The notes under the pieces: generated by a model
The model's database searches: none
What the model was told of the DNA's origin: nothing
What the model saw: the letters and a program-made list of their open reading frames with translations, nothing else
In this document: positions 10,701 through 10,878 of the stretch, piece after piece
Layout of the letters: each line of letters opens with the position of its first letter
Position numbering within the stretch: the stretch's first letter is position 1
NCBI GenBank assembly: GCA_964016885.1
Contig: OZ024766.1
Location: 4,650,001 to 4,714,000 of the forward strand
Origin: Eledone cirrhosa
Taxonomy: Eukaryota
Reading direction: 5' to 3'
Length of the DNA stretch: 64,000 nt
Translations under genes and position numbers: made by a program

Positions 10701-10878
10701 CGTTATTCCGGGTTGAATCGGAGGTAACCACAGTAAGTAAGGTACTCAATACATAGCAGAGTATAAAAGTTTTAATATAGATGAGATTCTACAGGACTAG
10801 AACTGTTTCATTCATTAGAAGATTCCTGATGATTTCTAATGAATGAAACAGTTCTAGTCCTGTAGAATCTCATCTATA
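10701..10878. mobile_element. Family-A HHR fold-back element in (TA)n
   Basis: Tail on minus strand plus palindrome 10775-10878. Confidence 0.8.
10820..10870 (+). ncRNA. Type I hammerhead ribozyme, family A
   Basis: AGATTC-CTGATGA-T-TTC taat GAA-T-GAA-ACAG ttctagtc CTGT-A-GAATCT; stems I, II and III pair; GUA site; U-U at 10.1/11.1. Confidence 0.8.

What the first reader, a model, noticed from the sequence alone, without database searches (positions are those of the whole stretch)
10701..10878. Family A: the hammerhead is inverted or duplicated relative to its tail in every tailed copy
Seen: at 10701, 20053 and 56408 (and the decayed, tail-less 2546) the element reads inverted HHR, then resumes in sense near stem II or stem I, then tail. 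At 12330-12437 the loop is simply flipped between the stem I arms. Breakpoints differ per copy but all lie in the ribozyme. Known: PLE insertions often carry a 5' inverted partial pLTR. Inference: the ribozyme structure sets the template-switch site, leaving potentially self-cleaving motifs on either strand.
Basis: partly seen in the sequence, partly recalled or inferred. Interest (0 to 1): 0.7.

Follow-up and report, generated by a model that had tools for sequence, protein, structure and literature searches.

The report
Twin-primed Penelope mini-palindromes at RNA start
These mirror-image stretches are real insertions of a Penelope-like jumping gene whose joints pile up at the front edge of its ribozyme, likely because the element's RNA begins there and two DNA copies likely run off that end and are joined head to head, rather than because the ribozyme's fold steers the switch.

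Summary
The window copies are as described, but 'every tailed copy' is wrong. Of the first 100 of 12,522 tail hits in the genome, 58 are short palindromes, 16 simple truncations, 24 run upstream past the ribozyme and 2 are mixed. They belong to a 6-kb Penelope-like element (758-aa RT + GIY-YIG ORF with Hydra-clade motifs) that inserts into (TA)n. Arm ends are not spread over the helices: they stop at the first two bases of stem I (0.33 per base, against about 0.005 in the rest of the ribozyme and upstream). That base lies 30 nt after a TATA box, in an initiator-like motif, and an extra G precedes it in 1,743 arms against 385 with A/T. It is therefore likely the capped RNA start. Best reading (inferred): both nicked target strands prime on the RNA's 5' repeat (+134 and +60/67), both cDNAs run off the cap and are joined head to head. 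Helix-guided joints exist but are rare (3 of 56; 55 stem I flips genome-wide). The layout is published; I found no paper giving this run-off explanation. No RNA data or cleavage test was available.

The parts
10701..10768 (-). Copy 1 tail (+67 to +134); its end at 10701 abuts (TA)n
   Evidence: identical in layout to the full-length copy L102
10769..10820 (-). Copy 1 tail-bearing arm, +15 to +66 (lacks the CUGAUGA box)
10820..10879 (+). Copy 1 inverted arm, +1 to about +60; complete hammerhead motif at 10820-10870; base 10820 shared with the other arm
   Evidence: DNA hairpin -48.8 kcal/mol
20055..20121 (-). Copy 2 inverted arm, +67 back to +1; complete hammerhead motif at 20071-20121
20122..20124 (+). 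Three bases between the arms: either a cap-derived C plus two bases, or a short snap-back onto the stem I 3' strand
   Evidence: compare L112 and L113 (interpretation inferred)
20125..20257 (+). Copy 2 tail-bearing arm, +2 to about +134
56408..56467 (-). Copy 3 (older subfamily) inverted arm, back to +3
56464..56572 (+). Copy 3 tail-bearing arm from +22; four bases shared with the inverted arm (a non-native pairing of the stem I 5' strand with the stem II 3' strand)
12326..12434 (-). Copy 4 (older): joint in stem I, so the ribozyme reads on + (core at 12387) while the tail reads on -
2546..2643 (+). Decayed, tail-less palindromic copy
28089..28124 (+). Tail-only copy, with no ribozyme and no inversion
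63727..63780 (+). Single non-inverted, tail-less ribozyme arm (first unit of a 187-bp local duplication)
63914..63967 (+). Second unit of that duplication

Best explanation
The palindromes are insertions of a Penelope-like retrotransposon whose two arms end at the first bases of the ribozyme's stem I, likely because the capped RNA starts there and two cDNAs, likely primed from the two nicked strands of a (TA)n target, run off that end and are joined head to head. Shown: the element, its two 3' ends (+134 with tail; about +60 or +67 without), the stop at +1/+2, the TATA box 30 nt upstream, the excess G before +1, and the identity of the two arms. Inferred: the RNA is terminally repeated (ribozyme-tail at both ends), so reverse transcription can start on the 5' copy and make only about 134 and 65 nt of cDNA; the cap is copied as an extra C; the two cDNA 3' ends are trimmed by 0-10 nt and joined through 0-7 shared bases or a few untemplated ones. 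Starting on the 3' copy instead gives the long copies, whose inversions fall anywhere upstream. The ribozyme is in every short copy because it is the first 51 nt of the RNA.
For: (1) Per-base rate of arm ends in 98 copies (162 ends): 0.33 at +1..+2, 0.056 at +3..+10, 0.0056 at +11..+45, and 0.003-0.005 upstream. (2) Genome-wide exact counts on the reverse strand: 6,920 (pattern from +12), 4,635 (+2), 1,996 (two bases before +1), 1,555 (about 12 before); loss per base 0.039, 0.245, 0.025. (3) TATA box 30 nt before +1 in 20 of 23 long copies (others at 24, 32, 37) and a YYANWYY match in 21 of 23 (consensus recalled). (4) Base before +1: G in 1,743 arms, A or T in 385 by subtraction, genomic C in 7,313. 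Only 5 of the first 30 G arms continue as the stem I 3' strand. Six pairs among 100 listed hits are arm-C-N-G-arm with a one-base spacer. (5) The inverted arm's outer end is +60 in 15 and +65..67 in 16 of 37. Tail-less single arms and the full-length L102 end there too, so it is an independent start site. (6) The inverted arm reaches further 5' than the tail arm in 33 of 56 copies, which fold-back of the tail cDNA cannot give. Short-plus-long mixed products exist (L058, L087, L130). (7) In vitro, a Penelope protein cuts and extends both target strands, starts at two internal sites that bound the tail, and uses uncleaved RNA (PMC11167929).
Against: No RNA evidence for the start site was available. 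The extra G can also come from a one-base snap-back on stem I, from untemplated addition, or from the partner arm: only about 10 of 30 sampled arms were unambiguous by my reading. The test in a second subfamily was inconclusive (G 231, A/T 322, most sampled Gs readable from the partner). The two arms share their loop II variant in 33 of 36 copies (shuffled mean 10.2), which fits one template or fold-back as well as two RNAs from one source. Full-length L102 begins about 5 bases before +1, and 3 of 98 copies have ends at -5 to -13. Breakpoints in older subfamilies were called by hand. D. virilis Penelope has a TATA-less internal promoter (PMC2377424, passages), so the promoter layout is not general.
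Confidence: 0.7

Rival explanations
1. One cDNA only: the tail-primed cDNA reaches the RNA 5' end, folds back on itself and self-primes second-strand synthesis, giving the palindrome.
For: Arms concordant in 33 of 36; 17 of 56 joints have the polarity that fold-back predicts; short fold-back-like inserts at some joints (L112-L114).
Against: 33 of 56 have the opposite polarity; arm-C-N-G-arm joints carry the extra base on both arms; tail-less arms and mixed short/long products need a second priming site.
Confidence: 0.12
2. One reading: the ribozyme's helices stall reverse transcriptase and supply the pairing for the template switch.
For: 3 of 56 joints use a native helix (L011 stem I; L041 and L069 stem II), plus window copy 12330; 55 stem I flips genome-wide; 18 of 28 ends in +11..+45 lie on stems II/III (p = 0.011).
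Against: 55 flips compare with about 5,300 arms that stop within three bases of +1. Ends sit at the 5' edge of stem I, whereas a helix should stall RT at its 3' edge (recalled). The end rate inside the core equals the upstream background, and long copies invert outside the ribozyme.
Confidence: 0.08
3. Self-priming on an antisense transcript makes the head-to-head repeats, as proposed for rotifer Penelope elements (PMC3846280, Discussion).
For: It accounts for head-to-head geometry and for arm identity.
Against: It needs antisense RNA ending exactly at a sense TATA/initiator position and gives no reason for the extra G or for two fixed outer ends.
Confidence: 0.05
4. The palindrome is a self-propagating mini-element (retrozyme- or MITE-like) copied from a few master palindromes.
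For: Some joints recur (three copies each of two joint types), and tandem ribozyme-tail units of this family exist (L139).
Against: Dozens of different joints among 56 copies; one recurrent joint occurs on two different loop II variants (L039 against L024 and L088), i.e. formed independently.
Confidence: 0.04

Closest known systems
EN+ Penelope-like element insertions with a 5' inverted partial copy and a one-sided tail (PMC8557442 Fig. 2 passage; Pen2a_Av in PMC3846280)
   Same: Head-to-head inverted segment at the 5' end, tail on one end only, ribozyme in the repeat, microsatellite target, partial tandems.
   Different: Here over half of sampled copies are minimal (about 130 + 65 nt) with both arms stopping at one base; the tail is about 67-75 nt rather than 30-40; the published explanation was antisense self-priming, left open by its authors.
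Hydra clade of Penelope-like elements (PMC8557442, section 11)
   Same: Single ORF with C-terminal GIY-YIG; RWR, DKT, CxCX5C, CxxC and CxH motifs; (TA)n target; ribozyme present.
   Different: Unit length 5,966 nt because of a microsatellite-rich 3' region (published: generally under 3 kb); placement in the clade by tree not tested; the ribozyme has U-U where G10.1-C11.1 is usual.
PAc (Poseidon of Anolis carolinensis) in vitro system (PMC11167929)
   Same: Two internal reverse-transcription start sites that bound the tail, both target strands cut and extended, AT-rich target, uncleaved RNA as template.
   Different: In the part I read (parts 1-2 of 4) it does not address inverted joints, the RNA 5' end or cap copying; there the ORF starts inside the ribozyme, here the likely start codon is at +182.
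LINE-1 twin priming and 5' extra G (recalled, not read here)
   Same: Both target strands prime, joints use microhomology, and the cap is copied as an extra base.
   Different: In L1 the inverted and direct segments roughly abut; here they overlap almost fully and both start at fixed internal sites.
Non-LTR retrozymes (bioRxiv 10.64898/2026.07.22.740005, part 1 of 5)
   Same: Non-autonomous type I hammerhead sequences derived from the Penelope repeat; L139 is such a tandem.
   Different: The palindromes are dispersed, inverted and apparently rebuilt at each insertion, not direct tandems.

Membership tests
EN+ Penelope-like element | Single ORF with RT and GIY-YIG endonuclease | tested here: met
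   758-residue open frame in L102 with YRDD at 392 and YIGMT at 647; Pfam GIY-YIG only sub-threshold (E 0.019) and no RT hit; 1,198 relatives at E <= 0.001, the listed best at 39-54% identity
EN+ Penelope-like element | Terminal repeat, inverted 5' segment, optional tail | tested here: met
   L102 carries the ribozyme region at both ends, 5,966 nt apart; inverted arms in 58 short and 8 long of 100 copies
Hydra clade | RWK-like, DKT, CxCX5C, CxxC and CxH motifs; (TA)n target | tested here: met
   RWR 83, DKT 161, CNCLNKEAC 611, CDLC 711, CMH 739; (TA)n flanks
Hydra clade | Phylogenetic placement with named Hydra RTs | not tested
   No named Hydra proteins were aligned
Hydra clade | Short length (generally under 3 kb) | tested here: not met
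   Unit 5,966 nt; a descriptive trait in the paper, not a strict criterion
Type I hammerhead ribozyme | Core CUGANGA / GAAA / UH with three helices | tested here: met
   97.2% of cells paired over 25 arms, one compensatory pair (A-U 12, C-G 12), sequence change concentrated in loop II; rows were picked for a pairing stem I and one change inherited by a subfamily counts 12 times; the minimum-energy fold of the 51-mer is not the hammerhead (-5.6 against -5.3)
Type I hammerhead ribozyme | G10.1-C11.1 pair (called highly conserved in PMC4209133) | tested here: not met
   U at both positions in all 25 aligned arms
Type I hammerhead ribozyme | Self-cleavage | not testable with these tools
   No assay; only 2 of 98 tail arms start at +46/+47
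Capped RNA polymerase II start site at +1 | Mapped RNA 5' ends | not testable with these tools
   No RNA run was listed; inferred from TATA, initiator-like motif, arm stops and extra G
Non-LTR retrozyme | Direct tandem units each with a hammerhead | tested here: not met
   The window copies are single inverted insertions; L139 elsewhere in the genome does meet it

The most novel reading that the evidence does not exclude
Penelope-type elements insert by true two-ended priming: each nicked target strand starts its own cDNA at a fixed site on a capped sense RNA, and the two cDNAs are joined 3' end to 3' end. In this family the hammerhead is the first 51 nt of the mRNA, so cleavage would remove the cap and act as a switch between translation and templating. 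The thousands of cap-marked mini-palindromes are a fossil record of that mechanism and a genome-wide source of about 60-bp hairpin RNA that could feed silencing or editing of the element.
Probability: 0.3. Interest if true: 0.7.

Novelty: new member of a known kind. Interest (0 to 1): 0.45.

Why it matters
How Penelope-like elements make their head-to-head inverted ends is stated as open in PMC3846280 and PMC8557442. This family gives thousands of copies with base-level ends that favour a sense, capped template copied from both target strands over antisense self-priming or ribozyme-guided switching. It also yields simple predictions for the existing in vitro system: the joint should follow the RNA 5' end, not the helices.

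Tried and rejected
Whole-window Rfam scan and repeat finder were swamped by microsatellites. DNA similarity search of the own genome found nothing because common words are skipped, so exact patterns were used. Ribozyme cleavage as the source of the 5' end was rejected: 2 of 98 tail arms and no inverted arm end at +46/+47. Assembly artefact is unlikely: arms differ by point changes, ends are fixed, and short-read contigs hold many different joints of other copies, but no contig spanned the 20053 copy and the runs are one study, possibly the assembly's own sample. No RNA holder was listed; this is no evidence on expression. The cap test in the AGCTTC subfamily was inconclusive. Families B and C were considered as no-ribozyme controls but carry degenerate cores at the same place, so they are not clean controls. 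Literature searches that returned no paper giving cap run-off or twin priming for Penelope palindromes, judged from listings: (open-access library only). Supplementary file S2 of PMC8557442 (Hydra hammerheads) was not held, so the U-U variant could not be compared; bioRxiv supplements were closed.

Full report
Observation. I number the element from +1, the A that opens the 5' strand of stem I: core CUGAUGA +7..13, stem II +15..24, GAAA +26..29, stem III +29..44, predicted cut after +45, stem I 3' strand +46..51, tail end +134; position 0 is the base before +1. Joints (inverted arm inner end / tail arm start) are +1/+15 at 10820, +1/+2 at 20121-20125, +3/+22 at 56464, and a stem I joint at 12330-12434. 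The window also holds a tail-only copy (28089) and two single tail-less arms (63727, 63914).

The family. A 29-nt tail pattern has 12,522 exact hits in the 3.0-Gb genome. I fetched the first 100 listed (contig C1, in coordinate order, so not a random draw). L102 is a full-length copy: ribozyme, tail, a 758-residue open frame (likely start codon at +182), a microsatellite-rich 3' region and a second ribozyme 5,966 nt after the first. The protein has YRDD, a C-terminal GIY-YIG half motif and the RWR, DKT, CxCX5C, CxxC and CxH motifs that PMC8557442 (section 11 read) lists for the Hydra clade; Pfam gave only a sub-threshold GIY-YIG hit. No tree was built.

Copy classes. By script plus hand correction for older subfamilies: 58 short palindromes, 16 simple truncations, 24 long tail arms and 2 short tail arms joined to a long inverted arm. 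L061 and L072 duplicate L018 and L070 and were dropped, leaving 98 copies, 56 of them short palindromes. Seven ends that the script put at position 0 were set to +1 (five because the C also reads from the partner arm, two from subfamily mismatch); this shifts the stop by one base at most. Eight long copies carry an adjacent inverted arm with joints at -10 to -290, outside the ribozyme. So inversion is common but not universal, and not confined to the ribozyme.

Two fixed outer ends. 85 of 100 tail arms end at +131..+141 (the last bases merge with the TA target), 3 run on into the ORF, and 12 older or indel-bearing copies read short. Inverted arms start at +60 in 15 and at +65..67 in 16 of 37 young copies. 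L102 and tail-less single arms end at the same place. This matches the two internal start sites that bound the tail in PMC11167929 (parts 1-2 of 4 read), where the protein cut and extended both strands and ribozyme mutants inserted normally.

Where the joints fall. Over 162 arm ends the rate per base at risk is 0.33 at +1..+2, 0.056 at +3..+10, 0.0056 at +11..+45, and 0.003-0.005 upstream. 37 of 56 short palindromes have both ends in +1..+10 and 48 have at least one there. Genome-wide exact counts (forward/reverse) agree: 9,488/6,920 from +12, 7,207/4,635 from +2, 5,999/3,442 from +1, 4,940/2,373 with the genomic C before it, 4,539/1,996 with two upstream bases, and 3,524/1,555 from about 12 upstream. 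Loss per base on the reverse strand is 0.039, 0.245 and 0.025. The forward excess of about 2,500 probably reflects tandem arrays, which I did not locate; upstream subfamily differences inflate the last loss.

Why +1. A TATA box begins 30 nt before +1 in 20 of 23 long copies, and 21 of 23 match the initiator consensus YYANWYY (consensus recalled). The base before +1 is G in 1,743 arms, against 385 with A or T by subtraction. Among the first 30 of these, 5 continue as the stem I 3' strand; about 10 have a C that neither partner nor target explains by my reading; many others join exactly where the partner offers a matching base. Six pairs among the 100 listed hits are arm-C-N-G-arm with one spacer base. 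I read this as the cap being copied (known for LINE-1, recalled), but snap-back or untemplated addition are not excluded; R2 RT adds untemplated bases, mostly A (PMC8857657, passages). A second subfamily gave G 231 and A/T 322, the A mostly from annealing of a 4-base palindrome at +1..+4 (T in 17 of the first 100 listed), and most sampled Gs could come from the partner, so that test is inconclusive. No RNA run was listed.

One cDNA or two. Fold-back of the tail cDNA requires the tail arm to reach further 5'. That holds in 17 of 56; the reverse holds in 33 and 6 are equal. Double extra-base joints, tail-less arms and short/long mixed products (L058, L087, L130) also need a second priming event. 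Arms share their loop II variant in 33 of 36 copies (shuffled mean 10.2, maximum 21 in 10,000), so both come from one RNA or one source locus.

Role of the ribozyme fold. Native helices form the joint in 3 of 56 copies. Exact stem I flips number 55 genome-wide, against about 5,300 arms stopping within three bases of +1. Ends in +11..+45 lean towards stems II/III (18 of 28, p = 0.011; not independent). So the fold supplies occasional microhomology but does not set the main site. The motif has the core, three helices and one compensatory stem I pair, lacks the G10.1-C11.1 pair that PMC4209133 (passages) calls highly conserved, and is untested. In palindromic copies a transcript through both arms would be predicted to form a long hairpin (DNA folds of -49 and -64 kcal/mol for the two young window copies) that hides the motif.

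Mechanism. Shown: the element, target, two outer ends, stop at +1/+2, TATA position, extra G and arm identity. Inferred: a capped, terminally repeated sense RNA; priming from both target strands on its 5' repeat; run-off and end joining. Confidence 0.7.

Comparison and novelty. The inverted 5' copy and one-sided tail are published (PMC8557442, passages; PMC3846280, passages and Discussion, which proposes antisense self-priming and leaves it open). D. virilis Penelope uses a TATA-less internal promoter (PMC2377424, passages). My searches (listings, open-access library) found no paper giving the run-off explanation. Three unchecked notes from this scan on other genomes read similar palindromes as twin-primed; they are not evidence. 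Verdict: a new member of a known kind, with unusually clear sequence evidence on an open mechanism. Interest 0.45.

Noticed in passing
L139 (G000:C1:67880300-67882000): Direct tandem of about 221-bp units (ribozyme, tail, start of ORF; three cores matched): a retrozyme-like derivative of this family.
   Followed up: partly
L140 (G000:C1:83678500-83684500): Tandem of about 1.07-kb units of 3' region, ribozyme and tail; five seen in the stretch, more listed next to it.
   Followed up: partly
G000: Ribozyme patterns show a forward-strand excess of about 2,000-2,500 that the tail pattern lacks, suggesting a large one-directional array that was not located.
   Followed up: no
window 8830-8927 and 56088-56185; many loci: A second family ('C') has the same head-to-head, one-tailed layout. 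15 of 26 distinct arms reach the same one or two bases, and the 9 that reach the furthest one all differ upstream; its core reads CAGAAAU, not CUGANGA.
   Followed up: partly
L005, L029, L063, L069, L127, L134; related tail at window 20321-20375 and 28040-28086: Family 'B': short palindromic arms stop at the A of an initiator-like TTAGTT that long copies read through; core variant CAGAAGA.
   Followed up: partly
L106 1919-2081, L056 706-811: Another palindromic family with a CUGAGGA/GAAAC core of the same stem II build.
   Followed up: no
window 12436-12475: A different hammerhead-like motif abuts copy 12330 and overlaps its last bases.
   Followed up: no
window 50998, 55959, 18523(-): Further CUGANGA...GAAA motifs of other families.
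   Followed up: no
L087 (G000:C1:41170237): A copy that runs on into the ORF starts at +47, beside the predicted cleavage site, and is joined to a long inverted arm; a possible product of cleaved RNA.
   Followed up: partly
L104 2129-4591 (+): An 821-residue open frame of another element resembling this family's N-terminus; no Pfam hit.
   Followed up: no
window about 11380-12300: A decayed coding-like stretch (LINE-like by recall) between copies 1 and 4.
   Followed up: no
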